Shown here: piece by piece, positions 48,856 through 64,000 of the stretch | How the letters are laid out: each line of letters opens with the position of its first letter | Numbering within the stretch: the first letter of the stretch is position 1 | DNA from: an uncultured Gammaproteobacteria bacterium | Lineage (GTDB): Bacteria; Patescibacteriota; Microgenomatia; UBA10105; UBA927 | Reading direction: 5' to 3' | Assembly (NCBI GenBank): GCA_964515005.1 | Contig: CAZEVT010000001.1 | Location: 310,720-374,719 of the forward strand | DNA: 64,000 nt | Program-made: the position numbers and the translations under genes | Notes under the pieces: generated by a model | Databases searched by the model: none | Told to the model about the DNA's origin: nothing | The model's input: the letters and a program-made list of their open reading frames with translations, nothing else

Positions 48856-50867
48856 TGGGTGGTAATGGTTGGAATCGACGCAATGTCGCTTTCGAAACTG
48901 CCGGGCACCGGCAGCATGGAAAGATCTTCCCATACGAGAGCACAGCCGTTGCGGGCGTAGGGATTACTCATGCAGACAATCAGTGTTTGGTGGGCGGCCT
49001 GTTGATCGCCAGTCCAGTAGTATTGGGCGCTAGCAAGCTCCATATGGTAGTACCCCCATTGAGGTGCCCCGTCGCGGGCAACGGTCCAAAAAAGTATCGT
49101 TGCATCTTTGTTACCCGTGGTTTCAAACAAGGAACGACCGACGAAATAAAAGAACTTTGCGGGTCCATCTATCCCCGAGAGATATCCGAGAGTTTGTAGA
49201 AATGAGGAGCTCTCGAGATAGTGTTGAAATTCATCTTTTTGCATATACGTACACAGTGAAGGAGAGGCACGAGATGAACCCTTTTTTGTCAAAGAACATA
49301 CTGCCTCGCCAGCCCCGCGTAGATCATGTATGTCTATGCGAGAGAGTATATATGCTTGGAGATAGGCATAGTTGTAGGGGTCAATAGACAAGAGCGTTTC
49401 ATATAAGGGAAATGAGTTTTCGGGTGTCGCCCTTTTGGCTAGGGCAAAAAGTATATCGGGGTCTTTCCTATAGAGAAATAGCATACGGGATTGCATCGCC
49501 AATGGGAGAGCGGGAACGGACGATTGTATCATGTGTAAAATGATTTCCTTGCGGTACGGCGCGAGCATGCCAGCAAGGGTAGTGCGGCCGGAAAAGAGTG
49601 CTATGCTACTTATTGTATAACTGAGTACATACAGCCAGAGTATGCCTAGCAGTACCCCTTGGAGGGCCTTAAGGGGGCCAGTCAGCGATGATTGACCCAA
49701 GGTATTTCTTATCAGTATGCCAATACTTGCCCACACGAGAAGCCAGATGGACAGTTGATCGAGGGTCACCTCAAATGTGCTATACAGAATTGTAAGGAGG
49801 ACACTGGTTGCAAGCGCTTTTTCCCATGGGTTCTTGTTTGTGTGTTTCAACTTTCTCACCATATGTGATATGACGATTCCAAAAAGAAAAAAGATTGATA
49901 TAGTGCCCAACACGCCGTTTTCTGCCAGTGTTTGTAACGGGAATGAGTGGGCGTACCGCGCATATTGCCCTGCGTTCGTTTGATAGGCCCGCGATGCGAG
50001 GGTAAAGGTGCCCGGGCCTATGCCAAAAACAGGTGCGTGGCGAATTGCTTTGACTGCTTGGTCTATAAACGCCCATCGCTCTTGGTTAACCGGCATATCT
50101 TTAAGAAAGAAGCGATTCAATGGATAGTGTGCGATAATGGCCGCTGTTTGTTCATAGGGGATGAGCGAGAGCCAGACGAGCGAGAAAAGGGCTATAGCCA
50201 TGGCACACATGCCCAAAGCAAGATGCCTATGATGTTTCAAGCGAAAATCTTCTACCACTATTGTGATAAGCCAGAGGACTATGATCAGGATTGCGCCACG
50301 GGCGCCGCTTAGGATAAGCGCCACACAAGCGGCAACCAGGGTGATACGCGACACTGCGGTCGGATGGTTTCGGTGATCCACAAGAAAAAGAGGGAAAAAA
50401 AATACCAGAAGATACGCGATGGGGTGGTGGCCATTGACCGCAATCATGCCGGTATATGCCGGAAGCAGATGTTGAAGCGGGGCGACGACAACAAGGAGTA
50501 GAAATGTCGCCAGAATGATGCGCCCCAAAAGGACCAGGGAAGAAGGAAATGCAGAGCGATATGTTTTTGTGTGCGATGCTATCCACGCCATGAGGAGAAA
50601 GGCCTCTATATATCTCACAACGACAGGTATTGACGAGGCGATGCTATGAGATATGGCTGTTGTAACAAGGAGACTGGCAAAAACTGCTATCCACAAAAAT
50701 TTTATATATTTTGATATAAAACGGAGTGAATTTTTTTGGAATGGCCTCGTGACATACAGGATACATATGATGAATGCCCAGTACACCTCTACCAAATTGT
50801 CTATATTCTGTGGCAGAAACAGGGAAATAAAAAAGAAGATAAAAAACACGCCAATACTTACAGACAC
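48852..50867 (-). CDS. O-antigen ligase/Wzy-like polytopic membrane protein with large C-terminal extracytoplasmic domain
   Basis: 671 aa. It has about 12 TM helices with a Wzy_C-like core (LSGARGAILIIVLWLI). The C-terminal ~250 aa are soluble and may be helical-repeat-like. Confidence 0.55.
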   Translation of the reverse strand: MSVSIGVFFIFFFISLFLPQNIDNLVEVYWAFIICILYVTRPFQKNSLRFISKYIKFLWIAVFASLLVTTAISHSIASSIPVVVRYIEAFLLMAWIASHTKTYRSAFPSSLVLLGRIILATFLLLVVVAPLQHLLPAYTGMIAVNGHHPIAYLLVFFFPLFLVDHRNHPTAVSRITLVAACVALILSGARGAILIIVLWLITIVVEDFRLKHHRHLALGMCAMAIALFSLVWLSLIPYEQTAAIIAHYPLNRFFLKDMPVNQERWAFIDQAVKAIRHAPVFGIGPGTFTLASRAYQTNAGQYARYAHSFPLQTLAENGVLGTISIFFLFGIVISHMVRKLKHTNKNPWEKALATSVLLTILYSTFEVTLDQLSIWLLVWASIGILIRNTLGQSSLTGPLKALQGVLLGILWLYVLSYTISSIALFSGRTTLAGMLAPYRKEIILHMIQSSVPALPLAMQSRMLFLYRKDPDILFALAKRATPENSFPLYETLLSIDPYNYAYLQAYILSRIDIHDLRGAGEAVCSLTKKGSSRASPSLCTYMQKDEFQHYLESSSFLQTLGYLSGIDGPAKFFYFVGRSLFETTGNKDATILFWTVARDGAPQWGYYHMELASAQYYWTGDQQAAHQTLIVCMSNPYARNGCALVWEDLSMLPVPGSFESDIASIPTITTQ

Positions 50868-52283: not shown

Positions 52284-53912
52284 TCAGAAATAACCCTCTT
52301 GGATTAGTGTACGCTTTTTTTCTTCATCAATCCAACCGGGAAATTCACTCTTGACTGGTTCATATACGGGGGGACCATTGAGGGTGGCACGAAGCGTATT
52401 GTAAAGATTCTGCATTATACCCGAGTTGGTTGCGACAATATTATTTTTTTCGCCGGGATCAAGTTTGAGGTTATAGAGCTCTAATTGTGGGATCGTCTGA
52501 TTACCTATATAGAGCTTCCATAGACCGTCCCGGATCGATTGTATGGTGTCTCCTCGATGCTGGCTTATCACATAGGAATCGCCCGTGGCATTGGGCTTGC
52601 CCAACAGGAGTGGTAGTAAACTTTTTCCTTCAAGTTGGCCTTTGAATTTCACGCCGATTATGTCAAGGAGGGTAGGGTATATATCGATACTTTGTCCTAA
52701 CGCATCATACGTTCCTTGTCTCACGCGGGGAGCAGACAGGATGAACGGTACGTACGTGGTCGTATTATAAATATTCCATCCATGATCAAATTCCCCATGT
52801 TCCATAAATTCTTCTCCGTGATCCGCGGTAAAAATGACAATGGTTTTTCTTTTTACTTCGGGTTTCGATACAAAGGAAAGGAGTGGTTTCAGGGTCTCGT
52901 CGAGGCCGTTGATGCGCTCATCATAGAGGCTCCGTACATAGGCAATCATGGCGGGATCCTTTTTATCAATTTTTTCCCAGTACCACGAAGCGTAGAGCTC
53001 ATATTGTTCATACCCTGGAAGTGACCATACCATGTCGCGAGCTTTTCGCAAATTACTGTGTACCAGAGCATCACGCAGTCCGTCCACAATGGCACTATTT
53101 CGCGTTTTACTTTCGGCATTCTCACTCTCTGTTAGGCGCCTGCGAAATTCCCCGAGCACAAATTGATAAAATGGTAATGTATCAGCCTCAAATTCTTTCC
53201 GAGTCAGAGGAATTTCCGGAAACGATTTGGGCACGTAACGCAGAGGTTCTTTTTCGGTGAGATACGGCGCGTGCACATAGTAGGTATGGAGAAACATAAA
53301 TGTTGGTTTTCCATCCAGAAATTTTGGCAGAAGCTTTTCATATTCAGCTCGCCACTCCGGTACCCAACTATTTATCGAATATATTTCATCAAACCCCCGC
53401 TCCAAGCCTTTGTCCAGAGGCAGATTCGGATCATCGGTAACACCTGCGTAGATGGTTCTATACCCATGGGTTTTTAGTGTTTGCGTCAAGGTCATAATGG
53501 CAGGATTGAGCGTATCTTTTAGCATATTGATCATGTGATGTTTACTGGGGTAGAGCCCGGTAAATATAGACATATGGCTATCTAAGGTGAACGAAGATTG
53601 TGAATAAAATCGGGAGAACAAAATATTTTGCGAAGCAAAGGCGCAAAGATTCGGCGCGGTATTGCGGGCGTACCCATAACAGGGCAACTCATCTGCGCGC
53701 AGGGTGTCCAAAGAGACCAAGATAATATTGCAATCCGGACAACTCGGTAGTCCCGGAATTATTTTTGGTGACCGATACACGATTTCGTCCACCAGTCGTC
53801 TAAGGAATGGGAAAGGACGGGGGAATACGTACGTTAATACCATAACTGCCCCCATACAAAGGACTATAAACGTACGATGTGATGTATATATTGGGTGTTT
53901 GATCTTACTCAT
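52284..53912 (-). CDS. sulfatase-fold (alkaline phosphatase superfamily) hydrolase/transferase, non-canonical nucleophile motif
   Basis: A TM anchor, then LVSLDTLRAD metal-binding start and the C-terminal ADHGEEFMEHGEFDHG of Pfam Sulfatase. The C/S-x-P-x-R formylglycine motif is replaced by T-L-D-S-H. Confidence 0.7.
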   Translation of the reverse strand: MSKIKHPIYTSHRTFIVLCMGAVMVLTYVFPRPFPFLRRLVDEIVYRSPKIIPGLPSCPDCNIILVSLDTLRADELPCYGYARNTAPNLCAFASQNILFSRFYSQSSFTLDSHMSIFTGLYPSKHHMINMLKDTLNPAIMTLTQTLKTHGYRTIYAGVTDDPNLPLDKGLERGFDEIYSINSWVPEWRAEYEKLLPKFLDGKPTFMFLHTYYVHAPYLTEKEPLRYVPKSFPEIPLTRKEFEADTLPFYQFVLGEFRRRLTESENAESKTRNSAIVDGLRDALVHSNLRKARDMVWSLPGYEQYELYASWYWEKIDKKDPAMIAYVRSLYDERINGLDETLKPLLSFVSKPEVKRKTIVIFTADHGEEFMEHGEFDHGWNIYNTTTYVPFILSAPRVRQGTYDALGQSIDIYPTLLDIIGVKFKGQLEGKSLLPLLLGKPNATGDSYVISQHRGDTIQSIRDGLWKLYIGNQTIPQLELYNLKLDPGEKNNIVATNSGIMQNLYNTLRATLNGPPVYEPVKSEFPGWIDEEKKRTLIQEGYF

Positions 53913-55270
53913 AGAGCTTTATATTTAGTGAGTGTTTGATACATAAGTCTATTAAATAAGTCTTTTTCTTTGGGATTTCCTTGACCCGCAAGATTCTGTT
54001 GTTCTTTGGGATCGTGGTGCATGTTGTAGAGTTTTGTTACTTTCGTTTCTTCATCATAGATAAGTTTCCAACCGTCGTTGGTGCGCAGCGATTTGAGAGA
54101 GGTGGCGTATCGATAGGAGGTTTCGGCAAAAACATCCAGTGCTAATCTAGCCCCCTTCATGAGAGGAGCCAGGCTTACTCCTTCGAGTTGGGATGCAAGG
54201 GATGCGGCGGGTGTGATGCCCACTAGTGAAAAGATTGTCGGCATGATATCTATCGTGCGCACCTGATCATCTATAATCTTTCCTTTTGATATACCAGGTA
54301 CCACAATAAGAAGCGGCACGTGTAGCAGTTCGTCGTAGAGCGTCATACCATGATCAATTCTGCCGTGCTCGTAGAATTCTTCTCCGTGGTTGGATGTGAA
54401 GATTATGATCGTTTTCTCCGCTAATCCCAATGCCTGATATGAAGCAAAAAAATTGGCAAGGCGAAGATCAGCACGAGCCAGTTTTTCATCATACAATGCC
54501 CGAAGTGTCGCCACATCTGCGGGTGTCAAAAAGACATTTCCCTGCGTCATTCCCTCTTCGCGCAGTGCCTTTTCCTCTTCTTTGGCCCCGGTAATCGGGC
54601 CCTGATAGGAACGGTCAACAAAACGTTTATCGTAGCCCTCAGGTGGTATATATTGTCCATGCACATCAAATCCATGGAGGAATATAAATAACCGTTCGTT
54701 TTTATGGGACGAGATAAAATTGAGTGCGTTGGGGGCTGCGGTATCTAGGCCATGAAATCCATCGTCGGTTATATAGCTATCAAATCCTATATCAAATCCA
54801 AATCCGGTGGCAAACGGCCCGCCTCCCATAAAAGCGGCCGTCGTATATCCTTGAGCCTTTAGAGCCCCCGCCAGCGTGACAATCTGCGGGGAAACAGTCG
54901 CAAGGTGGGCAGGAATCAAGCCTTCTTGCTCTGTTTTGCCAACCAAAACTTTGTTGACAATCTTATGTGTTGATGGATACGTACCCGTAAGCAAACTCAT
55001 AGCAGAGGGAAGGGTCCATGGTGCTGGCGCAAACGCATTACGAAACAAAAATCCCCGGCGGGATAGCGAGTCAATAAACGGTGTGGCAGGTCGTGGATTT
55101 CCTAATACACCCAGACCATCCGCCCGTAACGGATCAAGAGCAATAAGAATAATATTACAATCCGCGCACCGGAAGGCTTGTTGCGTATGGGGGTAAACAA
55201 CAGCCCATTGATACCAACCCAACGCGATGAGCATACCCAGAACGGCAATACGTAATGTTATCGATTTCAT
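53909..55270 (-). CDS. sulfatase-fold (alkaline phosphatase superfamily) hydrolase/transferase, paralog
   Basis: LIALDPLRAD ... SNHGEEFYEHGRIDHG, with T-L-P-S-A at the position of the FGly motif. It overlaps the downstream paralog by 4 nt. Confidence 0.7.
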   Translation of the reverse strand: MKSITLRIAVLGMLIALGWYQWAVVYPHTQQAFRCADCNIILIALDPLRADGLGVLGNPRPATPFIDSLSRRGFLFRNAFAPAPWTLPSAMSLLTGTYPSTHKIVNKVLVGKTEQEGLIPAHLATVSPQIVTLAGALKAQGYTTAAFMGGGPFATGFGFDIGFDSYITDDGFHGLDTAAPNALNFISSHKNERLFIFLHGFDVHGQYIPPEGYDKRFVDRSYQGPITGAKEEEKALREEGMTQGNVFLTPADVATLRALYDEKLARADLRLANFFASYQALGLAEKTIIIFTSNHGEEFYEHGRIDHGMTLYDELLHVPLLIVVPGISKGKIIDDQVRTIDIMPTIFSLVGITPAASLASQLEGVSLAPLMKGARLALDVFAETSYRYATSLKSLRTNDGWKLIYDEETKVTKLYNMHHDPKEQQNLAGQGNPKEKDLFNRLMYQTLTKYKAL

Positions 55271-55310
55271 TCGTGTGGTATAGTTAACTATATCAGATTA
55301 GAAATAGAGT

Positions 55311-55922
55311 ATGCCACGTAAGAAATATTTCACCGTTTTCATTGCCATAGGTATAACTATCGGTGCGGTTCTTTTGGTCAGCAAGAATGCTCGTCATCAG
55401 TCTCTATGCGATGGACTCAGGTGCATCCGGATGACAGATAGCCAGTCATATCAAGAAAAAGAACTATATAGTGATACTCCCAACGTCTACCGTGCGCTCT
55501 ATAGCTTTGGAGAGCGGTATATTCGCATCGAAGCCCAGCGCGTGAGTTCGGCAGACGCAGAGCAAACACTTGAGGGTTCCGTGACGCGCATGAAGGCGCT
55601 GTTTGAAAATGCTCCCGCCCCGTACCCGGGTGAAATATCCGACACCATCGTGTGTGATAAAGCATTTGCCCCAACATATGCCGAGCGAAGCCCAACCACA
55701 GATGGATCCCTAAAATACTTTATCGGATATCTTAACAATCGTATGACCTTTGGGTCGTGTTCTGTGGATCAGGCAGTATACAAAGGGATCATGGGGTTCA
55801 TGTATTGTCCCAATCGTGCGGTCATTGTGCGTGTTGAACTCATTGCACCAACAAGAGAATTTCAAGCGAATGAGGAAGTCCTTACCTCTCAATTTCTTTC
55901 CCTTGGGTGCAGCGGGGATTAG
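55311..55922 (+). CDS. hypothetical membrane-anchored protein
   Basis: An N-terminal TM helix and several Cys in the C-terminal domain. No family recognised. Confidence 0.4.
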   Translation: MPRKKYFTVFIAIGITIGAVLLVSKNARHQSLCDGLRCIRMTDSQSYQEKELYSDTPNVYRALYSFGERYIRIEAQRVSSADAEQTLEGSVTRMKALFENAPAPYPGEISDTIVCDKAFAPTYAERSPTTDGSLKYFIGYLNNRMTFGSCSVDQAVYKGIMGFMYCPNRAVIVRVELIAPTREFQANEEVLTSQFLSLGCSGD

Positions 55923-57955
55923 GGGAGAAAGATATCCAGCGGCTTGCCCTGGACAAAATCGGGGATTTTCACTTTAAGCGCTTTCATGATCGTCGGATAT
56001 TGATCGATGAGGGAAAATGGTGTATTTCCCAAGAAATGATTGCGTTTTATGCCCGGTCCAGCCATGATAAAGGGCGTCCACATTCCGGGAACGTCCTGTG
56101 CTTTAATAGCCTGTTTGTATCCCGAGATGAGGGGTTTTTCAAACAGACGCCGGTCTTGCGTCATCTCCTCATTCCATCCGTACCCGGGCGCGTTTGCGAT
56201 AATAAGGTCTCCTGCGCGGTCCGGATCCATGCGGACATGGTCGCGGGCGTCTTCCCATTTTACAATATCGGCAAGAGGGGCAACTCCTTCAGGAGTTTTT
56301 ACGTTTTTGAGGGTCTCGATGACTTGGTTTCGCAGAAGTTCATACGCCGGGCCGCTTGCGCGCTCGTAATTTCCATCAAGCCCATTGGGATTGATATAGA
56401 TATGTGCCATTTTGAGATAGACGACTTTGGAATTTTTCCAGTCGATAATCGGTTCTCCAGTTTTGGGATCAATCGTAAAGGAGAGCCAGCCCTTTTGCGC
56501 AAATAGGTTATTGAGGTTTACGTAGGTGTTGATAGGTACCGCGCCGTGATCACTACTGATGACAATATATGAGTTCGGGCCTTTTTTCGCGAGTATTTGC
56601 CCGATGAGCACATCAAGCTCTTTATACATATCCTGTACTTCCATCCAAAGTTTTTCCCGTTCAGTAGGCGTTACATCTTTGTAGGTAGTGCTTGCCGGAT
56701 CCACAGATCCCATCCACCAGCGGCTGGTGAGCATCTGGTTCGGGGTATAGATGTCATGGATTACCACATCAGGCTTAAAGAGGTTGAGGACCGCAGCTAC
56801 CGCCTTCGTATGCCAGGCGTAGGACATCGTCGCCTCATCTTGGAATATCTGCTTGTCTTCGGGGTAGTAGATAAGCTGGGCGGGGAAGTTATCAGCAAAA
56901 TCCACCTGCGGGCCCGTGGCCGCGAGCATTTTTTCGGCCGCTTCCTGCGGGAATGTATTGTATTGGTTGAGCGTGTCATAGAGAACGCGTACCCGGAAGA
57001 AGCCAGTGGGATCAAGCTTGACGATCGCAAGCTTCATATGGGAGGGGATTTTGATCTCTTCGTCTTGAGGCTTCCAGGTGAGCGTCACCGGCATCCAGTT
57101 GCTCCAGGTGGCTTCGGTCAGATCGGCAAGTATCGCGGTTTTGTCCATAGAAAAGGCTACTTTGTCATAGTTTGTTATTTTGTCATCTGTTGTGTCATAG
57201 ATATATCCATATATGGTAGCGCCCCAGCCGGTTAAGGCTATTTCTTTTCCCGGGCTGAATGTTACCGGCGCATTCTTCCAGTCTTTAACAAGGGTATCGT
57301 CTATATAATTGGTGAGAGCTGGCCCGAAGTAGAAAAATCTAGATCCTCTTCCCTGGGCAATTTTTCGGGATACATCTCCTTTGGTTTCGAAAAGGAGGGC
57401 AAAAAAATCCGGCCCCCATCCGCCCCAGCGGCCACGCATGACGATTCCTTTTTGAATTTCCGGAGGAGTGGATCCGGGAACCGATATGATGGCGACTTTT
57501 TTGCCTGCTTCTTCGAGGGTTTTCCAAATAGGGGGGACCTTTTTGGCGGTTGAACTGAAGCCGCCGATGGCGACTTTATCCAGTGGCTTGCCAATTGCTC
57601 TCATGGGGCCATCATCCACGCCGTTTATCTCCGGGTACGAACCCGTCAAAAGCGCGGCAAAGTTCGTCGGCGTATGGCTGGGGAAATTGGGATACGAATA
57701 GCCGTAGGACCCCATCTCCATGAGCTTCTTTATATTCGGCAGCTTTCCTTCCTTGGCCCATTGGAATACGGTGAAAAGGTCCGGCTCTGCACGTACTCCG
57801 TCGGGAATAAACCAGTAAAGTGTGTATGAGGGGACAAGGCGGGGGATAAGAAAAACACCAATAAGTATAAGTAGTCCGATCACCAGATATCGGAGTCGTG
57901 TCATGAGAAATACTATAAGAGTGGTATGGACAAATGTCAAGGAGGCGCGTTGCAT
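55919..57955 (-). CDS. type I phosphodiesterase / nucleotide pyrophosphatase (NPP)-family alkaline-phosphatase-superfamily enzyme
   Basis: A TM anchor, then WFIPDGVRAE and YPNFPSHTPTNFAALLTG (Thr nucleophile) and a distal SSDHG metal site. It is 678 aa with a large inserted domain. Confidence 0.65.
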   Translation of the reverse strand: MQRASLTFVHTTLIVFLMTRLRYLVIGLLILIGVFLIPRLVPSYTLYWFIPDGVRAEPDLFTVFQWAKEGKLPNIKKLMEMGSYGYSYPNFPSHTPTNFAALLTGSYPEINGVDDGPMRAIGKPLDKVAIGGFSSTAKKVPPIWKTLEEAGKKVAIISVPGSTPPEIQKGIVMRGRWGGWGPDFFALLFETKGDVSRKIAQGRGSRFFYFGPALTNYIDDTLVKDWKNAPVTFSPGKEIALTGWGATIYGYIYDTTDDKITNYDKVAFSMDKTAILADLTEATWSNWMPVTLTWKPQDEEIKIPSHMKLAIVKLDPTGFFRVRVLYDTLNQYNTFPQEAAEKMLAATGPQVDFADNFPAQLIYYPEDKQIFQDEATMSYAWHTKAVAAVLNLFKPDVVIHDIYTPNQMLTSRWWMGSVDPASTTYKDVTPTEREKLWMEVQDMYKELDVLIGQILAKKGPNSYIVISSDHGAVPINTYVNLNNLFAQKGWLSFTIDPKTGEPIIDWKNSKVVYLKMAHIYINPNGLDGNYERASGPAYELLRNQVIETLKNVKTPEGVAPLADIVKWEDARDHVRMDPDRAGDLIIANAPGYGWNEEMTQDRRLFEKPLISGYKQAIKAQDVPGMWTPFIMAGPGIKRNHFLGNTPFSLIDQYPTIMKALKVKIPDFVQGKPLDIFLP

Positions 57956-57980: not shown

Positions 57981-58655
57981 TTGTATTGTATGCGTTTGGT
58001 AAGACAAAAAGGCTTTACCCTCGTCGAACTTCTCATTGTCATTGCGCTTGTTATTATTATTCTTATCTTGGTCCTTTTAAGCTTGAGGACACAGATAATG
58101 CGGGCCCGGGACGCTAAGCGAAAAACAGATCTGAGCCGTATCCAGAAATCATTTGAGGAATATGTTAATGATCGGGATAGATACCCCAATGAGGATATTT
58201 TAGATAATTGTGAAAGCCATGACCTCGCTCCGTACCTTGAATCGGTTCCCTGTGATCCTTCTACCCGTGAGCCCTACCTGTATGTGCCCGTTGAGCCTGT
58301 GGGCGCCGGGTATCGAGTGTGTACCAAACTCGAGGATAAGAAGGATCCTGACATTAAGCTTCTCGGATGCCATCCCGACAACGGCTGCGGGTACGGCGCC
58401 GGGTATAATTATTGTCTGGCCGTAGGCGTACCGGTGACGCCCGACGGATTTAATCCGTTTGCCGAACCTACCCCTACGCCCACCCCTACGCCGTTCTATG
58501 CAGGAAGTTACGCCTGTACGCCTGGCGGCGCCTGCAATAATTATGATGATCCGAGTAAACCCCAATATGGCTGTCCGGTCTCCTGGGAATTTGGCTGCCC
58601 TGTACAGGGATCAAGAGAGGCTTGTGATAATCCCGCAAACCGTTGTCGTCTGTAA
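57981..58655 (+). CDS. type IV pilin-like protein with PT-repeat linker and Cys-rich C-terminus
   Basis: ...RQKG followed by FTLVELLIVIALVIIIL, the prepilin signal with Glu at +5. A PTPTPTPTP linker precedes a C-terminal Cys-rich module. Confidence 0.7.
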   Translation: MYCMRLVRQKGFTLVELLIVIALVIIILILVLLSLRTQIMRARDAKRKTDLSRIQKSFEEYVNDRDRYPNEDILDNCESHDLAPYLESVPCDPSTREPYLYVPVEPVGAGYRVCTKLEDKKDPDIKLLGCHPDNGCGYGAGYNYCLAVGVPVTPDGFNPFAEPTPTPTPTPFYAGSYACTPGGACNNYDDPSKPQYGCPVSWEFGCPVQGSREACDNPANRCRL

Positions 58656-58663
58656 GCTGCAAT

Positions 58664-61600
58664 CTAGTTTATAATCCACCAATTAAATTCAACTGGTACA
58701 GAAAGCGGGGAATCTAATCCTACGGTGAAGGCGACATGTGGTATTTTGTCAACCACATACAAAACTTGATTGTCGGTTGAGCCCACCGGAGTGATGTAGA
58801 TAAGACTGTGATCAGTCACCTGCGTATTGGCAAGGGTGACCTGGTATTGTCCTGCCGCAAGTGTAGCCTGACCAATTGTTGGAGAGTTTTGCGTTTGTTC
58901 GGTAACCAACAATCGGGTGGTGGATAATTGTCCGGAAAACGATGCATTGCCCGAGGCGTCTATGGTTCCGACGATATTACCATTGGAGCCGCGGACTAAT
59001 AGTTTAGCAAACTCACTCCCTTGACTGCCAGAATTAGCAGAATCAGTTGCGGTAATTGGGCGGGAAATATCTATAACTAAGTCACTGGTATCAATGGGAG
59101 AGATTGTATTTGCGCCCAAAACTCCAGTAATTTCGAGATTGCCGTTTATCACCACATTCCCCAATGTGTTGACGACAATCGTGCCGTTCATAATATCGAG
59201 TGCTGCGAGTTTGCTCTTTTGCAGATAGAGCGTATCGCCAAAGCTTTCGATGCCGCCGGCTCCGATATGCACCGTTCCATCAACATCCAATCCTCCCGCA
59301 ACAGTGGTCCTGCCGAGGAGGGTCTCCCCGAAGACGGCAAGGGAATTGGTAAGCGTAATATCCCGGGTAATCTCCACATGGTTTTCCGTGACCGTTGCTC
59401 CGAAGGCAAACAGCGCGCTGGCTGTTGCCTCACCGATAGACCGGACAAGATCGGGTTGATCAGAAATAGGTGCTGCAGCGGGCGTTGCATACGTCAATTG
59501 GGTGATATTGGTAACAAATGTCGCCGACTGGGTGCTCGTTTGGAGTTCTCCATACCGGGTGACAATTCGGTCGGCATAGAGCGTACCGGCAACCGTGGCA
59601 TCAGACTGGACCTCAAGGTTTTCTGAAACGAGTACACCTGAAAATGTGGCATTTCCTAGGGAATCGAATGAGGTAGTCGGCCTGCCTTCCTGGTCGGTGA
59701 TCGTTAAGGATTGTTCCGGATTGAGCTCAACTGCGATTCCCGCTGAAGTGCTGGCAATTGGCGAGATTATATCAACGCTCAATTTGTTGATGGAGGCCAC
59801 GGGGGAGACAAGTGATTGGCCAACCACGATAGTTTGGGCAGCGATGTCATACGCCTGCAAAAACCCTGTGGATACCTGGCCACTGACTATCTGGGCAAAC
59901 GTTCCCAGACGGGTGAGCAGTTCTCCGGTCTGGTGATTGATGACCTCCCACACATCAGTAACGATGGTAAATGCCCCGCCGTCAGAAATATCAGCGTCGG
60001 GGGCCGCGCTTACGGACTGTACAAGTACAAGGACTCTGTCTTTCCCAAGATCCGGCGTCCAGTTTTCCAGTGCGCGACCCATAATGAGGTCTCCCGGGTT
60101 TGCCTTGCGGCCACGGCCGGGGATACGGGCAGAGGTGATCGCGTCTCCTGCGGCAATCGCCGCGGAATTCGAGGCGATTTTCACCGGAATCCGGCCCGCC
60201 AAGGCCAAAAGTCTTCGGTTGGGGGCTTCCAGGCCAAGCATATTTCCTGCCCTAGTTGAAATGCCGCCGATAAGTTTTTGATCATTGGCTTTGGTGGTTT
60301 TGCGAAGGATCGGTACGTCGTATTCATCTAATTCCCCTGTGACGGCAACCAGATCGCCTTCTTCGATCGCATCATCCTCCACGGTATACCACTCGGCAAG
60401 GTCGGCTCCAAACACCACCGCGTCAAGCCTTAATTGCTGAGTATCTCCGCTAAAATTATATAGTCTGACTGTATTTGCATCTGTTTGGACTATTTTGAAT
60501 CCGTTATTCCATTCAATCCTAACGTTATATAGTTTTGGCCGGAAGGCGTTGTTAGTTGTTGTAATAATCGCTCTATACTGAATATATTCATTTGGAGTAG
60601 AGGATATGGTATGCCCTGAGGCCGCATTCATGAGCCGTTCTCCCTGAATATTATCGATATACAGCGTCTGGCCAGTTGCATTAAGAGAGGTGACCCTGAG
60701 CTTTGTTATAGCATTTCTTTGGGATTCATCGATATCTGTTATATCCCAATAGACTTTTTGCCAGGTATTAACGGAATCTATATTAAATGTTTCTTCTTGT
60801 TCTGTTGCAGCACTCTCACCTATACCAAGCTTGAAGACGTTCCCGGTTGTACTGCTATAGACCCACATGCTGATAAGATCATAATTTGAAAGATCAGTTG
60901 AAGAGATGGTGGCTCCTGCATATTGACCGGATGCGCTGTACGTATCAGCGCTTCCCGAGTTGTAGAGATCTGTTTTTTCAGTCGTAGAAAGAACTTTTTT
61001 CCAGAATCCGACCTCATCGATAAGACCGTCAAAGAAGCTCGTTTCTGCGGTTGTCGTTGCTCCTATTCTGAAGTTGGCGGCGGTATCGGCGGGAACTCCC
61101 GTTTCTGCTGCGGAATCTGCCGTACCATTATTAACAGAAATATTACAGGTGTTGGCTGTTGCGTCGTGCCAAGCCAGAACATAATACCAAGTTGCTGTTG
61201 TTGTCGCACCAAACGTGTTTGCGGTGACCGTACATCTTGATGTACCACCGCTGTCGAATAACTCGAATTGTAATCTGTCCGCTGTTGCTCCGGTATAGTA
61301 AAGGGAGTATTCGCGGACTGTGGCGCTCTCATATTTACTTATAATCGTTTCTTGGGTTGTACCGGCCGATTCACTCTCCATATTTATCCAGGCTCCCACG
61401 GTAAAATCAATGTCTCCAGTTGAAGCAGATGAGTTGTCGGCAACTTCAAAAAAGTTGCCATTGGTTAGTTCCAGATCGGCGGCATTGCTTATTTTGCCTG
61501 TTCCGCTCAAAATATATGAGGTCGCGGATCGGTTGTCTGTTAAATTATTCGTACCAAAGCTATCACTTCTGGTGACTGGTGTTCCTGCAACAGCACTGCT

Positions 61601-64000
61601 TTCATTCATCGTCCAGTACGAGGTGAGGGAAGTGGTGAGTGTTCCCGCGGTATCCTGCTGAAAGCCACTGGCGGTAATCTTGGTAATATTTCCGGCGGTT
61701 GCCTCGTCTTCGTCTTCAAACTCATCAACGTTGCGAGTGACTGCTGTATCGTCGGCAACGTTAAGCGTGGTACTGGTCCAATCACCGTGCGTATTAGCAT
61801 TGTTTAAGACTTTAATATTGGTATTGACAACAGCCGGTCTCCACGGCTCCCACGATCCATCCGTTGCGTTATTACTCTTGCCAGTTCTCGTTTGGAACTG
61901 CACCATTCCGTAACTATTTTGATCAAAATTAAATGTCAGTTTATTGAGTTCCGTGGAGTTGGGGGTAGCCACCTCATCGGAAACAAAGAGAGCGTAGTTA
62001 TTTACACTGGTTGACGCACTATCTGCGGTGGGGCTGGTCGTTCCTGAGATTGAGGTGACATAGGATATTGCGATCCTTCCACTTCCTCCGGCTCCACCTG
62101 CGTTGGCAGCTGTTGCGCCGCCATTCCACATACCATTACCACCTGAACCACCTGCTGCAGTAACGAGGGATGAGCCTAATGTGAGGGTATTTCCAATTAA
62201 TTTAATTGACCCTCCCGCGGCTCCGCCACCACCGCCTGAATATGAACTCGCTGCTCCCGAGCCGGCTGTGCCTGTTTCACCTGTTGATGTGATCCCCCCG
62301 GAAACAGTGACTGTGTTTGCTGCGATGTAGATAATGCCGCCTCCATCTCCGCCTGCTCCTGGTATTGAAGCACCTGCAACATATTCTGCTCCTTCACCGC
62401 CAGCTGTGCCAAACATAAGGTCGGTTAAAACTGCGTCTCCGTATGTTCCACCTCCACCTCCACCTCCACCATTAACGCCTGTACCTGCTCCGTTTGCCGA
62501 ACTATTAGTTCCACCGGCTGTTGCATCAGCTCCATCGGTAGCTATACCTCCACCTCCCGCGGTCCCATATCCTCCACCCCCACCTCCTGAATCATATCCA
62601 CCACCACCTCCACCAGCACCGCCGGATGTAGCACTCCCAGTGCCACCAGTATTACCACCTCCACCTCCACCACAATATCCTGTACCACCCGCACTGGCGC
62701 CACCGTTGTATCCACCTCCACCTCCAGCTGAACCAGCTGTTCCAGTCACATTATTACCCCCAATCCCTCCTGGGCCACAAAATGCCTCTCCGCCATCTCC
62801 ACCCGCGCCATTCGCGGGAGCATCATCGTCACTGGTGCCAATATATCCTTTAGAGTTAGCGTTGATAGTAGTTGATGCATTTATGGTGACGGTTCCAGAA
62901 GCTCGGAAAAATATGACTCCACCTTCACCAGCACCGTTATTTACTGCTCCAGTGGGGGATACCCATTCATCAGGATAGAAGTCTGTGCCGGATGTGGTTG
63001 TTGTGACATTGGTATAATTTGGCACCCTTTGGAGCATGACAATTTGGCTTCCGGAAGAAAGACCAATGCTCGTATCATCCGTCGTATTTGCTCCGTAGTA
63101 TTTACTTTTACCTGTGGTAAAGGTTATAACATTTGCGACAATACTTCGCACCCGTAACGTTTCATAGTTGCCAACATTGACAAAAGCGGAGTTTCCACCC
63201 TGAAGATTAATCAGAACCACTTCATCGTTAACTGCAAGACACCCCGTGGATGGAGCCGATTCAAGAGTTGCAGTAGTGGAAGTGAGCGCAGTAACAGAAT
63301 AGTTGACAGCATCGCCTCCATCTGCACAGGACCTACCGGAGATTAGACTCGTGGCATTGATACTGGTGTCCGAGGAAACTGTGATGGCACCGTCGGCACC
63401 AGTGCCGGGATCGTAGGTCGTTTGTTGGGTGATACTGGTTGGGGCAACTTCGGTATGAATGCTTTTGTTGTTGTCCAGTTCGGATTCCGTCATCTGGAGT
63501 CTTCCCGACGTGTAGTAATTCACGTCATTGAGGCTTCTGACTCTATTGGCATCAATCGTGTAGGTCCCAACAGGGTTGGTGTAGGCTAATTGAATAGCAC
63601 TTATACTTGGTTGGTTTGCAGTATTGGTCGTTGTGAGTATTGCCCGGTATTGTACATAGGTATTTGCCGTGGAAGTAATGGCGGATCCTGCAGGAGTGGT
63701 TAAGAGAGACTTTTCTGCCTTTATGCTATCCACATACACCGTAGAATTGGTTTGAGTGATGTACACGCGAAGTGCGGTGACACCATTGCGATCAGCAGCA
63801 GCAATATCGGAAATATCCCAATATACTTTTTGCCATGTATTGATAGCGTCTACTGTCACAGTTTCTTGAGATTCAACGCCTGTGTCAGTGATAGAAAGTT
63901 TTACCAGATTTCCTGATCCGGTGGCATATACCCAAGCCGAGATATAATCAAAACCGGAAAGATCAGTAGTGCTGATTGTGTCTTCATTGAATCCAGCCGC
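58664..64000 (-). CDS. giant cell-surface protein (more than 1,770 aa; N-terminus beyond window end) with Gly-rich region, LamG/ConA-like domain and internally duplicated module
   Basis: The track ORF 58664..63859 begins at an internal GTG. The reading frame stays open on the minus strand to position 64000. It contains a Gly-rich low-complexity region of about 260 aa, a LamG-like segment (IDFTVGAWINMESESAGTTQETIISKYESATVREYSLYYTG...LQFELF) and a beta-rich C-terminal region. Confidence 0.7.
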   Translation of the reverse strand, partial: AAGFNEDTISTTDLSGFDYISAWVYATGSGNLVKLSITDTGVESQETVTVDAINTWQKVYWDISDIAAADRNGVTALRVYITQTNSTVYVDSIKAEKSLLTTPAGSAITSTANTYVQYRAILTTTNTANQPSISAIQLAYTNPVGTYTIDANRVRSLNDVNYYTSGRLQMTESELDNNKSIHTEVAPTSITQQTTYDPGTGADGAITVSSDTSINATSLISGRSCADGGDAVNYSVTALTSTTATLESAPSTGCLAVNDEVVLINLQGGNSAFVNVGNYETLRVRSIVANVITFTTGKSKYYGANTTDDTSIGLSSGSQIVMLQRVPNYTNVTTTTSGTDFYPDEWVSPTGAVNNGAGEGGVIFFRASGTVTINASTTINANSKGYIGTSDDDAPANGAGGDGGEAFCGPGGIGGNNVTGTAGSAGGGGGYNGGASAGGTGYCGGGGGGNTGGTGSATSGGAGGGGGGYDSGGGGGGYGTAGGGGIATDGADATAGGTNSSANGAGTGVNGGGGGGGGTYGDAVLTDLMFGTAGGEGAEYVAGASIPGAGGDGGGIIYIAANTVTVSGGITSTGETGTAGSGAASSYSGGGGGAAGGSIKLIGNTLTLGSSLVTAAGGSGGNGMWNGGATAANAGGAGGSGRIAISYVTSISGTTSPTADSASTSVNNYALFVSDEVATPNSTELNKLTFNFDQNSYGMVQFQTRTGKSNNATDGSWEPWRPAVVNTNIKVLNNANTHGDWTSTTLNVADDTAVTRNVDEFEDEDEATAGNITKITASGFQQDTAGTLTTSLTSYWTMNESSAVAGTPVTRSDSFGTNNLTDNRSATSYILSGTGKISNAADLELTNGNFFEVADNSSASTGDIDFTVGAWINMESESAGTTQETIISKYESATVREYSLYYTGATADRLQFELFDSGGTSRCTVTANTFGATTTATWYYVLAWHDATANTCNISVNNGTADSAAETGVPADTAANFRIGATTTAETSFFDGLIDEVGFWKKVLSTTEKTDLYNSGSADTYSASGQYAGATISSTDLSNYDLISMWVYSSTTGNVFKLGIGESAATEQEETFNIDSVNTWQKVYWDITDIDESQRNAITKLRVTSLNATGQTLYIDNIQGERLMNAASGHTISSTPNEYIQYRAIITTTNNAFRPKLYNVRIEWNNGFKIVQTDANTVRLYNFSGDTQQLRLDAVVFGADLAEWYTVEDDAIEEGDLVAVTGELDEYDVPILRKTTKANDQKLIGGISTRAGNMLGLEAPNRRLLALAGRIPVKIASNSAAIAAGDAITSARIPGRGRKANPGDLIMGRALENWTPDLGKDRVLVLVQSVSAAPDADISDGGAFTIVTDVWEVINHQTGELLTRLGTFAQIVSGQVSTGFLQAYDIAAQTIVVGQSLVSPVASINKLSVDIISPIASTSAGIAVELNPEQSLTITDQEGRPTTSFDSLGNATFSGVLVSENLEVQSDATVAGTLYADRIVTRYGELQTSTQSATFVTNITQLTYATPAAAPISDQPDLVRSIGEATASALFAFGATVTENHVEITRDITLTNSLAVFGETLLGRTTVAGGLDVDGTVHIGAGGIESFGDTLYLQKSKLAALDIMNGTIVVNTLGNVVINGNLEITGVLGANTISPIDTSDLVIDISRPITATDSANSGSQGSEFAKLLVRGSNGNIVGTIDASGNASFSGQLSTTRLLVTEQTQNSPTIGQATLAAGQYQVTLANTQVTDHSLIYITPVGSTDNQVLYVVDKIPHVAFTVGLDSPLSVPVEFNWWIIN
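62059..62842 (-). repeat. Gly-rich low-complexity coding repeats (GGxGG/GGGGGY) inside the giant surface-protein gene
   Basis: Sense translation is GGGGGYNGGASAGGTGYCGGGGGGNTGGTG.... The opposite strand yields a spurious Pro-rich ORF. Confidence 0.6.

What the first reader, a model, noticed from the sequence alone, without database searches (positions are those of the whole stretch)
58664..64000. Giant surface protein with duplicated ~100-aa blocks ~1,000 aa apart, Gly-rich low-complexity region and LamG-like domain
The ORF exceeds 5.3 kb and continues past the window edge. Two highly similar ~100-aa blocks sit about 1,000 aa apart, suggesting an ancient duplication of a large module. One block is roughly 60500..60935 (...DSVNTWQKVYWDITDIDESQRNAITKLRVTSL...YIQYRAIITTTNNAFRP...). 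The other is roughly 63574..64000 (...DAINTWQKVYWDISDIAAADRNGVTALRVYIT...YVQYRAILTTTNTANQP...). Each block is followed by similar sequence (TYTIDANRVRSLN versus IVQTDANTVRLYN). A poly-Gly region of about 780 bp has a mirror Pro-rich antisense ORF. A LamG/ConA-like lectin segment is present. The protein lies next to a pilin gene and could be a pilus-tip adhesin or an S-layer-like host-attachment protein.
Basis: seen in the sequence. Interest (0 to 1): 0.55.

Follow-up and report, generated by a model that had tools for sequence, protein, structure and literature searches.

The report
Giant tailspike-like surface fibre, Patescibacteria
This is the back end of a very large cell-surface fibre gene from an ultra-small (Patescibacteria) bacterium, built from repeated lectin-like modules plus a self-folding, probably self-cutting domain otherwise known from phage tail spikes, and it is most likely used to grip sugars on another cell.

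Summary
A minus-strand ORF ends at 58664 and runs off the window. The source contig extends it to 2,563 aa, still without an N-terminus. The two blocks align at 46% identity (E 2e-41), 1,023 aa apart, and their DNA has diverged, so this is not an assembly artefact.

The blocks are the tails of a tandemly duplicated supermodule of about 760 aa. Each supermodule has a beta-solenoid whose Gly-rich core is predicted ordered (pLDDT 90, pTM 0.93), followed by a small beta-sandwich split by an inserted CBM-type jelly roll. In copy 2 a LamG domain is nested inside the CBM.

Downstream lie a phi29-gp12-type (Peptidase_G2) intramolecular-chaperone domain with the D-x-x-E cleavage motif, an unassigned fibre region, and a borderline K1-lyase_C-like end domain.

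Homologues are 2-4.4 kaa proteins, mostly from Patescibacteria. Many begin with an integrase-SAM-like or MerR HTH domain followed by a TM helix.

The best reading is a membrane-anchored, probably trimeric, tailspike-like lectin fibre for attachment. The pilus-tip and S-layer readings are not supported, because pilin adjacency holds only in the closest relative. I rate it a new variant of a known kind, of moderate interest.

The parts
58664..64000 (-). C-terminal 1,778 aa of the giant gene. The stop codon is at 58664-58666 and the 5' end lies beyond the window and beyond the contig. At least 2,563 aa are known, and the estimated full length is about 3,270 aa.
   Evidence: Translation. Contig extension. 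Collinear with the 3,038-aa Collierbacteria protein P0008 at an offset of about 711 aa.
63506..64000 (-). End of supermodule copy 1 (aa 1-165). It holds the C-terminal two-thirds of the CBM-like jelly roll, the 'YxQYRA' half of the split beta-sandwich and a short 'TYTIDANRVR' strand.
   Evidence: blastp, 46% identity to aa 1031-1182. AF2 model of the 68%-identical P0008 unit. Foldseek matches to CBM folds.
62000..63412 (-). Beta-solenoid / Gly-rich module of supermodule copy 2 (aa 197-667). It has an N-terminal beta-barrel-like part ('GDEVVLINLQG...VMLQRVPNY'), long solenoid strands ('GGGIIYIAANTVTVSG', 'GGSIKLIGNTLTLGS', 'GRIAISY') and an ordered Gly-rich core.
   Evidence: AF2 model with pLDDT 90.3 and pTM 0.93. 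27 invariant columns, mostly Gly, across 31 homologues. Weak Foldseek hits to phage tailspikes. Strong hit to a Bathycoccus virus protein, E 4e-21.
62051..62830 (-). Gly-rich core (aa 391-650, 40% Gly) within the solenoid module.
   Evidence: Composition scan. pLDDT is mostly >90 with almost no DSSP helix or strand.
62334..62978 (+). Antisense Pro-rich ORF (214 aa, 39% Pro). It is a non-coding mirror of the GGN codons.
   Evidence: Translation and composition. The sense frame has conserved homologues.
61829..61999 (-). N-terminal half ('QFQTR' half, aa ~668-724) of the split small beta-sandwich, copy 2.
   Evidence: The same segment is contiguous with the 'YxQYR' half (gap 8-19 aa) in 33 units of other proteins. 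Strands E6-44 of the AF2 model.
61640..61828 (-). First strands of the CBM-like jelly roll, copy 2 (aa ~725-787). They include the conserved acidic loop 'FEDEDEAT'.
   Evidence: Alignment A2. AF2 strands E66-113, with the acidic loop at pLDDT <50.
60956..61639 (-). LamG / ConA-like domain (aa 788-1015; Pfam match at aa 861-1008). It is inserted into a loop of the CBM-like domain and is present only in copy 2.
   Evidence: Pfam Laminin_G_3, E 1.6e-14. Copy 1 and 130 of 140 homologous units lack it.
60641..60955 (-). Remaining strands of the CBM-like jelly roll, copy 2 (aa 1016-1120; 'ISSTDLSNYDLISMWVY...TWQKVYWDI...LYIDNIQGE').
   Evidence: blastp. Foldseek: CBM11 6r31 at E 7e-7, plus CBM4, CBM22, CBM30, CBM6 and CBM35; 96 hits at E<1e-3.
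60446..60640 (-). C-terminal half ('YIQYRAII' half, aa 1121-1185) of the split beta-sandwich, copy 2.
59981..60445 (-). Peptidase_G2-like intramolecular-chaperone (IMC) domain (aa 1186-1340). The motif is 'FGA|DLAEWY', and the predicted scissile bond is A1199|D1200 (D codon at nt 60401-60403).
   Evidence: Family profile vs PDB: phi29 gp12 C-domain 3gqh, E 7.9e-5, and 6qz9 aligned at S691|D692. hhalign vs gp12 680-854: probability 91.6%, E 8e-7. Pfam PF11962 is hit by 8 of 18 family members. D, A and E of DLAE are invariant.
58916..59980 (-). C-terminal fibre region (aa 1341-1695) with an internal repeat of about 75 aa ('ISPI...GNA(T/S)FSG...'). No family is assigned.
   Evidence: Self-match at 33% identity. 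No PDB or Pfam relatives for profile A5.
58667..58915 (-). C-terminal beta domain (aa 1696-1778, '...FNWWIIN'). It is K1-lyase_C-like, with borderline support.
   Evidence: Pfam PF24146, E 5.7e-7 and 30.4 bits (cutoff 27) when scanned alone. It scores 24.9 bits within a 443-aa context.
57990..58655 (+). Neighbouring type IV pilin-like gene (221 aa), convergent with the giant gene. It is probably not part of the same machine.
   Evidence: N_methyl motif. A homologous pilin (42% identity) follows the orthologue in Collierbacteria. The adjacency is not conserved elsewhere.

Best explanation
The finding is the C-terminal two-thirds of a gene of about 3,300 aa from a Microgenomates-type Patescibacterium (closest relative: Candidatus Collierbacteria). 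It encodes a giant, membrane-anchored cell-surface fibre assembled from phage-tailspike-like parts.

Shown:
- The protein contains two tandem supermodules.
- Each supermodule is a compact beta-solenoid with an ordered Gly-rich core, followed by a beta-sandwich of about 100 aa.
- That sandwich is split by an inserted CBM-type jelly roll of about 155 aa. In the second copy a LamG lectin-fold domain is nested inside the CBM.
- After the repeats comes a domain homologous to the intramolecular-chaperone / autocleavage domain of the phage phi29 appendage protein gp12 (Peptidase_G2). Its D-x-x-E motif aligns on the gp12 cleavage site.
- Then follows a fibre of about 440 aa that ends in a small beta domain. 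That domain resembles the C-terminus of a Klebsiella-phage capsule lyase tailspike.

Inferred from homologues:
- The missing N-terminus is a cytoplasmic integrase-SAM-like (or MerR-type) domain plus one TM helix, so the rest of the protein is extracellular.

Inferred mechanism:
- The C-terminal IMC domain nucleates folding and trimerisation of the ectodomain, as in tailspikes.
- It may then cut the chain between A1199 and D1200.
- The CBM and LamG domains project sideways from the stalk on their split 'carrier' domains and bind glycans on a host cell or particle, giving the episymbiont attachment or host recognition.
For: Architecture:
- Contig extension and self-comparison show copies at 'full' aa 191-945 and 982-1967, with shifts of 791, 780 and 1024 aa.
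- The plan [solenoid - split sandwich(CBM±LamG)] x1-3, then the DLAE domain, then the C-terminal end domain, is conserved in most of the 120 listed homologues, which are 1.4-4.4 kaa long and whose source names are mostly Patescibacteria lineages.

CBM:
- The AF2 model has pLDDT 85.9 and pTM 0.81.
- Foldseek finds 96 PDB hits at E<1e-3, led by CBM11, CBM4, CBM30, CBM22 and CBM6 and by phage tailspike accessory domains.

Split domain:
- The two halves are contiguous (gap 8-19 aa) in 33 units of other proteins.
- 130 of 140 units lack LamG.

Solenoid:
- pLDDT 90.3 and pTM 0.93, with ordered Gly positions.
- The only PDB resemblances are phage tailspikes and depolymerases.

IMC domain:
- PDB profile hit to gp12, E 7.9e-5, starting at the S691|D692 site.
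- hhalign probability 91.6%, E 8e-7 over 108 columns.
- Pfam Peptidase_G2 is hit in 8 of 18 members.
- D, A and E of the motif are invariant.

C-terminus: K1-lyase_C, E 5.7e-7.

Anchor:
- 46 of 120 homologues have N-terminal SAM-like or MerR domains, and 43 of those have a later TM segment.
- P0008 is 67% identical and is a single ORF.

Context:
- The window is chromosomal and rich in envelope-glycan genes, not phage genes.
- PHROGs and phage tblastn searches were negative.

Literature: very large Patescibacteria proteins are preferentially surface-targeted and carry adhesion domains, including concanavalin A (PMC13059738).
Against: - The N-terminus of this particular gene is not in the data, so the anchor is by homology only.
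- No ligand, oligomeric state or cleavage has been tested. CBM and LamG folds also occur in non-binding roles.
- The window's own IMC domain does not reach the Pfam threshold by itself. Only the family profile does.
- In phi29 the IMC domain is the extreme C-terminus, whereas here 440 aa follow it. Cleavage would therefore discard a large conserved fibre. This suggests the domain may be retained as an uncleaved trimerisation module.
- Structural similarity of the solenoid to tailspikes is weak (TM 0.12-0.16).
- K1-lyase_C support is borderline.
Confidence: 0.55

Rival explanations
1. Surface-displayed glycan depolymerase. The tailspike-like solenoids would be catalytic (lyase or hydrolase), with the CBM and LamG domains targeting them to a host capsule, wall polymer or environmental polysaccharide. 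The neighbouring sulfatases and phosphodiesterase would finish the degradation.
For: - The only solved-structure resemblances of the solenoid are phage tailspike depolymerases and the K1 lyase.
- There is a K1-lyase_C-like C-terminus and a weak K1-lyase_Rider hit in one homologue.
- CBMs are typically appended to glycan-active enzymes.
- Two sulfatases and a type I phosphodiesterase lie within 6 kb.
Against: - No catalytic family was detected by Pfam, NCBIfam or PDB profiles.
- TM-scores to tailspikes are very low (0.12-0.16).
- The sulfatase neighbourhood is not seen at the two homologous loci inspected.
Confidence: 0.2
2. Contact-sensing, membrane-tethered regulator. The giant ectodomain would sense host contact, and processing would transmit the signal to the cytoplasmic DNA-binding-type N-domain (ToxR-, RodZ- or MyRF-like logic).
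For: - N-terminal MerR HTH (E 1e-23) or integrase SAM-like domains (E 4e-8 to 6e-13), followed by a TM helix, occur in at least 43 of 120 homologues.
- A phage-type autoprocessing chaperone domain sits in the same chain.
- MyRF is a precedent for a membrane transcription factor using a tailspike-type autocleavage domain (PMC8326128, abstract).
Against: - The IMC domain is extracellular and far from the TM helix, so its cleavage cannot release the N-domain.
- The SAM-like domain alone is not known to be a sequence-specific regulator.
- The N-terminus of this gene is unseen.
- The N-domain may simply be a cytoplasmic anchoring or assembly module.
Confidence: 0.1
3. Pilus-tip adhesin working with the adjacent type IV pilin.
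For: - A pilin-like gene abuts the 3' end.
- A homologous pilin follows the orthologue in Collierbacteria.
- Type IV pili mediate host binding in Saccharibacteria (PMC11623550, abstract).
Against: - Complete homologues carry a cytoplasmic domain plus a TM anchor instead of a pilin-like N-terminus.
- Pilin adjacency is seen in only 2-3 of about 28 loci.
- In this window the two genes are convergent, so they are not co-transcribed.
Confidence: 0.05
4. S-layer-like lattice protein.
For: It is a large, beta-rich, Thr/Ser/Gly-rich extracellular protein in a monoderm-type lineage.
Against: - No SLH or other S-layer domains were found.
- The architecture is that of an elongated fibre with a tailspike-type chaperone domain and a TM anchor in homologues.
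Confidence: 0.04
5. Phage or prophage tail fibre, or an assembly chimera.
For: There are tailspike-type IMC and C-terminal domains and viral structural relatives of the solenoid.
Against: - There are no PHROG hits and no tblastn hits in 50,697 phage records.
- Neighbours are cellular genes, including Rho and envelope glycosylation genes.
- The ORF is uninterrupted and collinear with homologues from independent assemblies.
- The repeat copies are only 68% identical in DNA.
Confidence: 0.03

Closest known systems
Bacillus phage phi29 pre-neck appendage (tailspike) protein gp12, Peptidase_G2 auto-chaperone domain (PDB 3gqh, 3suc, 6qz9)
   Same: - The IMC domain is homologous: hhalign 91.6%, E 8e-7, and PDB profile E 7.9e-5.
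- The conserved D-x-x-E motif aligns on the gp12 S691|D692 cleavage site.
- The domain is preceded by beta-solenoid modules whose only PDB resemblances are tailspikes.
   Different: - This is a cellular protein, not a virion protein, and it is about four times longer.
- The IMC domain is followed by another 440 aa rather than ending the chain.
- The solenoid has a Gly-rich core with no counterpart in gp12.
- Cleavage, ATP dependence and trimer formation are untested.
Giant bacterial adhesins with ligand-binding domains inserted in 'split' carrier domains (RTX adhesins; concept from Graham et al. 2024, cited in PMC13059738)
   Same: - A putative sugar-binding jelly roll (CBM, plus LamG) is inserted into a small beta-sandwich whose two halves are contiguous elsewhere.
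- The protein is giant, repetitive and extracellular.
   Different: - No RTX repeats, T1SS signal or Ig-like extender arrays were detected.
- The anchor is an N-terminal TM helix with a cytoplasmic domain.
- The stalk is built of solenoids.
Very large surface proteins of other Patescibacteria (e.g. Absconditicoccaceae) with concanavalin-A, FN3 and integrin-type domains (PMC13059738)
   Same: - Same phylum-level lineage.
- Length over 1,500 aa, a TM or signal segment, and a ConA/LamG domain.
- Proposed role in host recognition.
   Different: Those descriptions are domain lists. The supermodule, the nested insertion, the Peptidase_G2 domain and the DNA-binding-type N-termini found here are not mentioned in the papers I could search.
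CAZy carbohydrate-binding modules of the beta-sandwich type (CBM11, CBM4, CBM22, CBM30, CBM6)
   Same: The jelly-roll fold matches (Foldseek E 7e-7 to 1e-4), and there is a faint profile match to CBM4-2 (E 0.5).
   Different: - There is no significant sequence membership in any CBM Pfam family.
- The domain has a conserved acidic EDEDE loop and is not attached to a recognisable enzyme.
- The ligand is unknown.
MyRF, a membrane-bound transcription factor with a tailspike-type ICA domain (PMC8326128)
   Same: A single chain combines a DNA-binding-type N-domain, a TM helix and a phage-derived intramolecular-chaperone autocleavage domain.
   Different: [quoted passage not shown]
- Here the G2-type domain is at the far extracellular end.

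Membership tests
Laminin_G_3 / ConA-like lectin-glucanase superfamily (PF13385) | Sequence match above the Pfam gathering score | tested here: met
   54.7 bits against a cutoff of 27.6, E 1.6e-14, aa 861-1008.
Beta-sandwich carbohydrate-binding modules (CBM4/11/22/30/6 type) | Jelly-roll beta-sandwich fold | tested here: met
   The AF2 model (pLDDT 85.9) gives 96 PDB hits at E<1e-3, led by CBM11 6r31 at E 7e-7. The model is of the 68%-identical P0008 unit, not of the window copy itself.
Beta-sandwich carbohydrate-binding modules (CBM4/11/22/30/6 type) | Sequence membership in a curated CBM family | tested here: not met
   No Pfam CBM family matched at E<=10 for the block. The best PDB profile match is CBM4-2 at E 0.5.
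Beta-sandwich carbohydrate-binding modules (CBM4/11/22/30/6 type) | Demonstrated carbohydrate binding | not testable with these tools
   This needs glycan arrays or ITC on the recombinant domain.
Peptidase_G2 / phi29 gp12 intramolecular-chaperone autocleavage domain (PF11962) | Sequence homology to the IMC domain | tested here: met
   Met at the family-profile level: PDB hmmsearch 3gqh E 7.9e-5, hhalign vs gp12 680-854 at 91.6% and E 8e-7, and 8 of 18 members hit PF11962, best 8.8e-7. The window copy alone does not reach the Pfam threshold.
Peptidase_G2 / phi29 gp12 intramolecular-chaperone autocleavage domain (PF11962) | Conserved Asp/Glu (D-x-x-E) at the scissile site, aligned with gp12 S691|D692 | tested here: met
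   'ADLAEWY' aligns with 'SDFAEYF'. D, A and E are invariant in 18 diverse members. Mature gp12 ends at residue 691 (PMC6542822).
Peptidase_G2 / phi29 gp12 intramolecular-chaperone autocleavage domain (PF11962) | Domain forms the extreme C-terminus and is released after trimer folding | tested here: not met
   About 440 conserved residues follow the domain. Release is untested.
Peptidase_G2 / phi29 gp12 intramolecular-chaperone autocleavage domain (PF11962) | Autoproteolysis and trimerisation | not testable with these tools
   This requires expression, mass spectrometry and mutagenesis (D1200N, E1203Q).
K1-lyase_C (PF24146) | Sequence match above the gathering score | tested here: inconclusive
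   30.4 bits (cutoff 27) when the last 83 aa are scanned alone. 24.9 bits when scanned within 443 aa, and only 2 of 8 homologues match.
Type IV pilus-associated tip adhesin / minor pilin | Pilin-type N-terminal leader and hydrophobic helix on the protein itself | tested here: not met
   The N-terminus of this gene is missing. Complete homologues begin with SAM-like or MerR domains plus an internal TM helix, or a short signal-like anchor, and none has a G|F(T/S)L(I/V)E leader.
Type IV pilus-associated tip adhesin / minor pilin | Conserved linkage to pilus genes | tested here: not met
   A pilin motif next to the 3' end was found only in L001, L002/L005 and (after a second giant gene) L023, among about 28 complete loci.
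S-layer proteins | SLH or other S-layer anchoring or lattice domains | tested here: not met
   Pfam and NCBIfam find none.
ALK-type / Pfam glycine-rich domains (PF12810, PF21722) | Sequence match of the Gly-rich region | tested here: not met
   There is no Pfam hit for 31 copies of the module at E<=1. PF21722 hits in relatives map to a different region. No ALK chain appears in the PDB profile or Foldseek searches.
RTX-type giant adhesins | RTX repeats and a C-terminal T1SS signal | tested here: not met
   No such Pfam families were detected. Only the split-domain insertion principle is shared.

The most novel reading that the evidence does not exclude
These giants may form a previously undescribed class of one-chain contact sensors in episymbiotic bacteria. 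A phage-tailspike-derived, self-assembling lectin fibre on the outside would be covalently coupled, through a single TM helix, to a DNA-binding-type domain (integrase SAM-like or MerR HTH) on the inside. Binding or mechanical pull on a host cell would then be relayed directly to the chromosome or to gene expression. Alternatively, the N-domain tethers DNA at the contact site.
Probability: 0.1. Interest if true: 0.85.

Novelty: new variant of a known kind. Interest (0 to 1): 0.5.

Why it matters
How ultra-small episymbiotic bacteria recognise and hold on to their hosts is largely unknown. Outside Saccharibacteria there are almost no candidate molecules with a mechanistic handle.

This family is found mostly in Patescibacteria, chiefly Microgenomates-type lineages. 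It gives concrete, testable parts:
- two kinds of lectin-fold domains displayed on split carrier domains;
- a predicted ordered glycine-rich solenoid with no close solved-structure relative;
- a phage-type self-chaperoning domain with a predicted cleavage site.

It also shows that cells have recruited tailspike assembly logic for their own surface fibres. Finally, it flags a systematic mis-annotation: several of these giants are named 'site-specific integrase' or 'MerR regulator' in public records because of their small N-terminal domain.

Tried and rejected
- Whole-protein phmmer against PDB gave no hits. PHROGs gave no hits. NCBIfam gave no hits.
- tblastn of the C-terminal 593 aa and of the solenoid module against 50,697 phage genomes gave no hits.
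- An exact-match scan of metagenome contigs with the contig-end sequence, meant to recover the N-terminus, gave 0 matches.
I therefore modelled the 68%-identical P0008 unit instead.
- The search for related loci with the IMC alignment failed because it had no conserved 7-10-mer. The solenoid alignment was used instead.
- The profile of the C-terminal fibre region gave only chance-level PDB hits.
- The idea that Pfam Gly_rich_2 describes the Gly-rich core was rejected. It maps to a different region in relatives.
- The idea that the conserved upstream genes at homologous loci form a WxL/csc-type surface cluster has only one sub-threshold hit (WxLIP_PGBD, E 0.019).
- The literature searches found no paper describing this family.
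Full report
**What is in the sequence.** The long ORF lies on the minus strand. Its stop codon (TAG) is at 58664-58666, and the frame stays open to base 64000, giving 1,778 aa. I looked up the neighbouring pilin-like protein and found the source contig: JGI sample 3300010391, Ga0136847_11232483, 69,874 bp, held as locus L001. There the same ORF continues for another 785 codons to 2,563 aa and is cut again by the contig end. It is collinear with the closest complete homologue, the 3,038-aa P0008 of Candidatus Collierbacteria. That comparison implies about 710 missing N-terminal residues and a full length near 3,270 aa.

**Checking the observation.**
- The DNA of the copies has diverged. The best-conserved part of the larger repeat is 68% identical, and the longest exact run is 15 nt. 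An assembly artefact is therefore excluded.
- The Gly-rich stretch is nt 62051-62830, exactly 780 nt, with 103 Gly in 260 aa.
- The antisense ORF 62334-62978 is 39% Pro. This is the expected mirror of GGN codons and not a gene.
- The LamG call is solid: Laminin_G_3, E 1.6e-14.

**The real repeat unit.** With the extra 785 residues the picture changes. The protein holds two tandem supermodules, at 'full' aa 191-945 and 982-1967. The register shift is 791 aa in the first part (75-90% identity), 780 aa in the middle and 1,024 aa at the end. The jump comes from an insertion of about 230 aa, the LamG domain, in copy 2. The window happened to start just inside the end of copy 1.

**Homologues.** A search of 5.8 billion proteins returned 190 hits. 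Nearly all are 1.4-4.4 kaa long, and nearly all that carry a source name come from Patescibacteria: Collier-, Pace-, Dojka-, Woese- and Roizmanbacteria and WWE3. A few weaker solenoid-only hits are RHS/SpvB-type proteins, one of them named Anaerolineales. Scanning them with segments of our protein shows a conserved plan:
- [solenoid - 'QFQTR' segment - (LamG) - CBM-like segment - 'YxQYR' segment], repeated 1-3 times;
- then a 'DLAEWY' domain;
- then a conserved C-terminal domain.

A scan of GTDB species genomes found the solenoid module in 71 loci, again mostly Microgenomates-type Patescibacteria. A few were in TM6, Bacteroidetes, Myxococcales and Bdellovibrionales bins. A profile of the sandwich/CBM unit matches 2,410 of 1.84 billion cluster representatives (106 at E<=1e-30), with up to six or seven units per protein.

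**The duplicated block is a CBM-type jelly roll nested in a split domain.** I modelled the unit of P0008 copy 1, which is 68% identical to our block A. The contig-only sequence was not accepted by the tool. The model has pLDDT 85.9 and pTM 0.81, is all-beta with 17 strands, and has one disordered acidic loop (YEDEDEF).

Foldseek against the PDB gives 96 hits at E<1e-3. They are led by CBM11, CBM4-2, CBM30, CBM22, CBM6 and CBM35, and also include accessory domains of phage tailspikes. A sequence profile gives only a faint CBM4-2 match (E 0.5), and no Pfam CBM family matches. This is therefore a fold assignment, not family membership.

Flanking it are two short segments, 'QFQTR' and 'YxQYRA'. 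In 33 units of other proteins in the hit set these two segments are directly contiguous, with gaps of 8-19 aa, and repeat as a domain of about 100 aa. In this family, then, the CBM is an insertion into a small beta-sandwich.

The LamG of copy 2 sits between the 'NITKITAS' strand and the 'YAGATISSTD' strand of the CBM, so it is an insertion within the insertion. 130 of 140 units in homologues lack LamG. This resembles the 'split carrier domain' principle reported for giant adhesins (Graham et al. 2024, as cited in PMC13059738).

**The Gly-rich region is part of an ordered module.** Thirty-one copies of the 470-aa module align with 27 invariant columns, most of them glycines. The AF2 model of the window's own copy (aa 190-672) has pLDDT 90.3 and pTM 0.93. 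The Gly-rich core is placed with pLDDT mostly above 90 yet has almost no DSSP helix or strand. Long solenoid strands flank it: 'GGGIIYIAANTVTVSG', 'GGSIKLIGNTLTLGS' and 'GRIAISY'.
- Sequence profiles find nothing in PDB or Pfam.
- Foldseek finds only weak partial similarity (TM 0.12-0.16) to phage tailspikes and capsule depolymerases: phi297 gp61, LKA1 gp49, AP22 gp54 and the K1 lyase.
- Among predicted viral structures there is a clear relative, a Bathycoccus virus 'PA14 domain' protein (E 4e-21, TMq 0.57, 24% identity). Weaker matches go to uncultured phage proteins and to giant-virus 'collagen-like' proteins.

**The C-terminal third is tailspike-like.** The domain starting 'FGADLAEWY' (aa 1186-1340) is homologous to the C-terminal auto-chaperone domain of phi29 gp12:
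- The family profile hits PDB 3gqh at E 7.9e-5.
- It aligns 'ADLAEWY' on gp12 'S691-D692-FAEYF'.
- hhalign against gp12 residues 680-854 gives 91.6% probability and E 8e-7 over 108 columns, starting at that same site.
- Eight of 18 family members hit Pfam Peptidase_G2 on their own.
- D, A and E of the motif are invariant.

Mature gp12 ends at residue 691 (PMC6542822), and its C-domain acts as an intramolecular chaperone that is cut off after trimer folding (PMC3357383). By alignment the equivalent bond here is A1199|D1200.

There are two differences. The window's own copy is below the Pfam threshold when scanned alone. And about 440 conserved residues follow the domain, with an internal repeat and no PDB or Pfam relatives. 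The last 83 aa match K1-lyase_C (30.4 bits alone, 24.9 in context), which is another tailspike C-terminus.

**The likely N-terminus.** Complete homologues are single ORFs. They begin with one or two integrase N-terminal SAM-like domains (P0008 5.6e-13, P0021 4e-8) or MerR-type HTH domains (P0005 1e-23, two copies). A Lys/Arg-rich stretch and a TM helix follow, and then the extracellular part.

By iterative search, 46 of the 120 listed homologues have such N-domains, and 43 of those have a later TM segment. Among the 67 with the DLAE domain, 36 have the N-domain. This explains why public records name some of these giants 'site-specific integrase' or 'MerR family regulator'. For our gene this is inference from a relative whose best local alignment is 67% identical.

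**Context.** The window is chromosomal. It carries Rho, two tRNA-Ala genes and many envelope-glycan genes: DUF2298, YfhO, PMT_2, two Wzy_C, GT2 and an NPCBM protein. Next to the giant gene lie a type I phosphodiesterase and two sulfatases.

The pilin-like gene is convergent with the giant gene. A homologous pilin (42% identity) follows the Collierbacteria orthologue. Among about 28 loci with a complete 3' end and the DLAE motif, no other has a pilin there, apart from one case after a second giant gene.

At the two homologous loci I inspected, a conserved set of four unannotated secreted or anchored proteins precedes the giant gene. The corresponding side of our gene is off the contig.

**Interpretation.** The domain anatomy is well supported. 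The function is inferred. I consider it most likely a type II-anchored, tailspike-like fibre, probably trimeric. Its C-terminal chaperone domain would drive assembly and possibly self-cleavage. Its laterally displayed CBM and LamG domains would bind glycans for host or particle attachment. This fits the reported surface targeting and adhesion-domain content of very large Patescibacteria proteins (PMC13059738).

A surface depolymerase role is the main rival. The pilus-tip, S-layer, prophage and artefact readings are poorly supported. The most novel reading that is not excluded is a one-chain contact sensor coupling the fibre to the cytoplasmic DNA-binding-type domain. MyRF (PMC8326128) is a loose precedent, although here the position of the cleavage domain does not fit release of the N-domain.

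**Verdict.** I found no published description of this architecture in the searchable literature, although the proteins themselves sit in public databases as hypothetical proteins. I rate it a new variant of a known kind (giant adhesin-like surface proteins and tailspike-type self-chaperoning fibres), of moderate interest.

Noticed in passing
L002:1318-5679 and L003:1950-6147 (loci of homologues P0008 and P0021): Directly upstream of the giant gene, on the same strand, both loci carry a conserved set of four unannotated genes (243-293, 312-331, 478-497 and 334-337 aa; pairwise 30-47% identity). The proteins have signal-like N-termini. Two have C-terminal TM helices, and two end in '...Y.A.PSF'. 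The only family hint is a sub-threshold WxLIP_PGBD match (E 0.019). This may be a surface-complex operon that includes the giant gene. The equivalent side of our gene is off the contig.
   Followed up: partly
Homologues P0008, P0053, P0083, P0087, P0071, P0094, P0103: Public records name these 2-4 kaa proteins 'site-specific integrase', 'phage integrase SAM-like domain-containing protein' or 'MerR family transcriptional regulator'. The names come from a small N-terminal domain, while the bulk of each protein is an extracellular fibre. This is a systematic annotation error.
   Followed up: yes
window 61700-61730 (aa ~758-766 'FEDEDEAT'); model m5030658dd8c7 residues 96-104: A nearly invariant acidic loop (E-D-E-D-E) inside the CBM-like domain is the only internal part of the unit predicted with pLDDT <50. 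It could be a metal (Ca2+) or ligand site. It remains unexplained.
   Followed up: no
window 57990-58655 (+): The pilin-like protein has a classic 'KGFTLVELLIV' leader, a (PT)n linker and a Cys-rich C-terminal half. A homologue sits in the same position next to the Collierbacteria orthologue, but on the same strand as the giant gene, which implies a local inversion.
   Followed up: partly
window 52284-57955 (-): There is a cluster of two sulfatases (453 and 542 aa) and a 678-aa type I phosphodiesterase/nucleotide pyrophosphatase with an N-terminal TM segment. This is unusual cargo for a reduced genome and may be relevant to host-glycan or teichoic-acid scavenging.
   Followed up: no
window 5667-22281 and 41612-50867: The window is dense in envelope-glycosylation membrane proteins: PMT_2, DUF2298, YfhO-like, two Wzy_C O-antigen-ligase-like proteins and GT2. 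There is also a 595-aa protein with a C-terminal NPCBM/NEW2 glycan-binding domain (18676-20463, E 2e-32).
   Followed up: no
BFVD entry A0A7S6NY19 (Bathycoccus sp. RCC716 virus 1): A prasinovirus 'PA14 domain-containing protein' shares the whole solenoid/Gly-rich module (E 4e-21, 457 aligned columns, 24% identity). Pandoravirus and Orpheovirus 'collagen-like' proteins match more weakly. The module is therefore shared between Patescibacteria and viruses of eukaryotes.
   Followed up: no
L023, L027, L044, L046, L051, L016, L017, L060: In many genomes two giant ORFs (each over 1,200 aa) carrying these modules lie head-to-tail. This suggests paralogous pairs or arrays of such fibres.
   Followed up: no
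window 15267-15339 and 16074-16147 (-): Two tRNA-Ala genes (anticodons GGC and CGC) lie about 800 bp apart.
   Followed up: no
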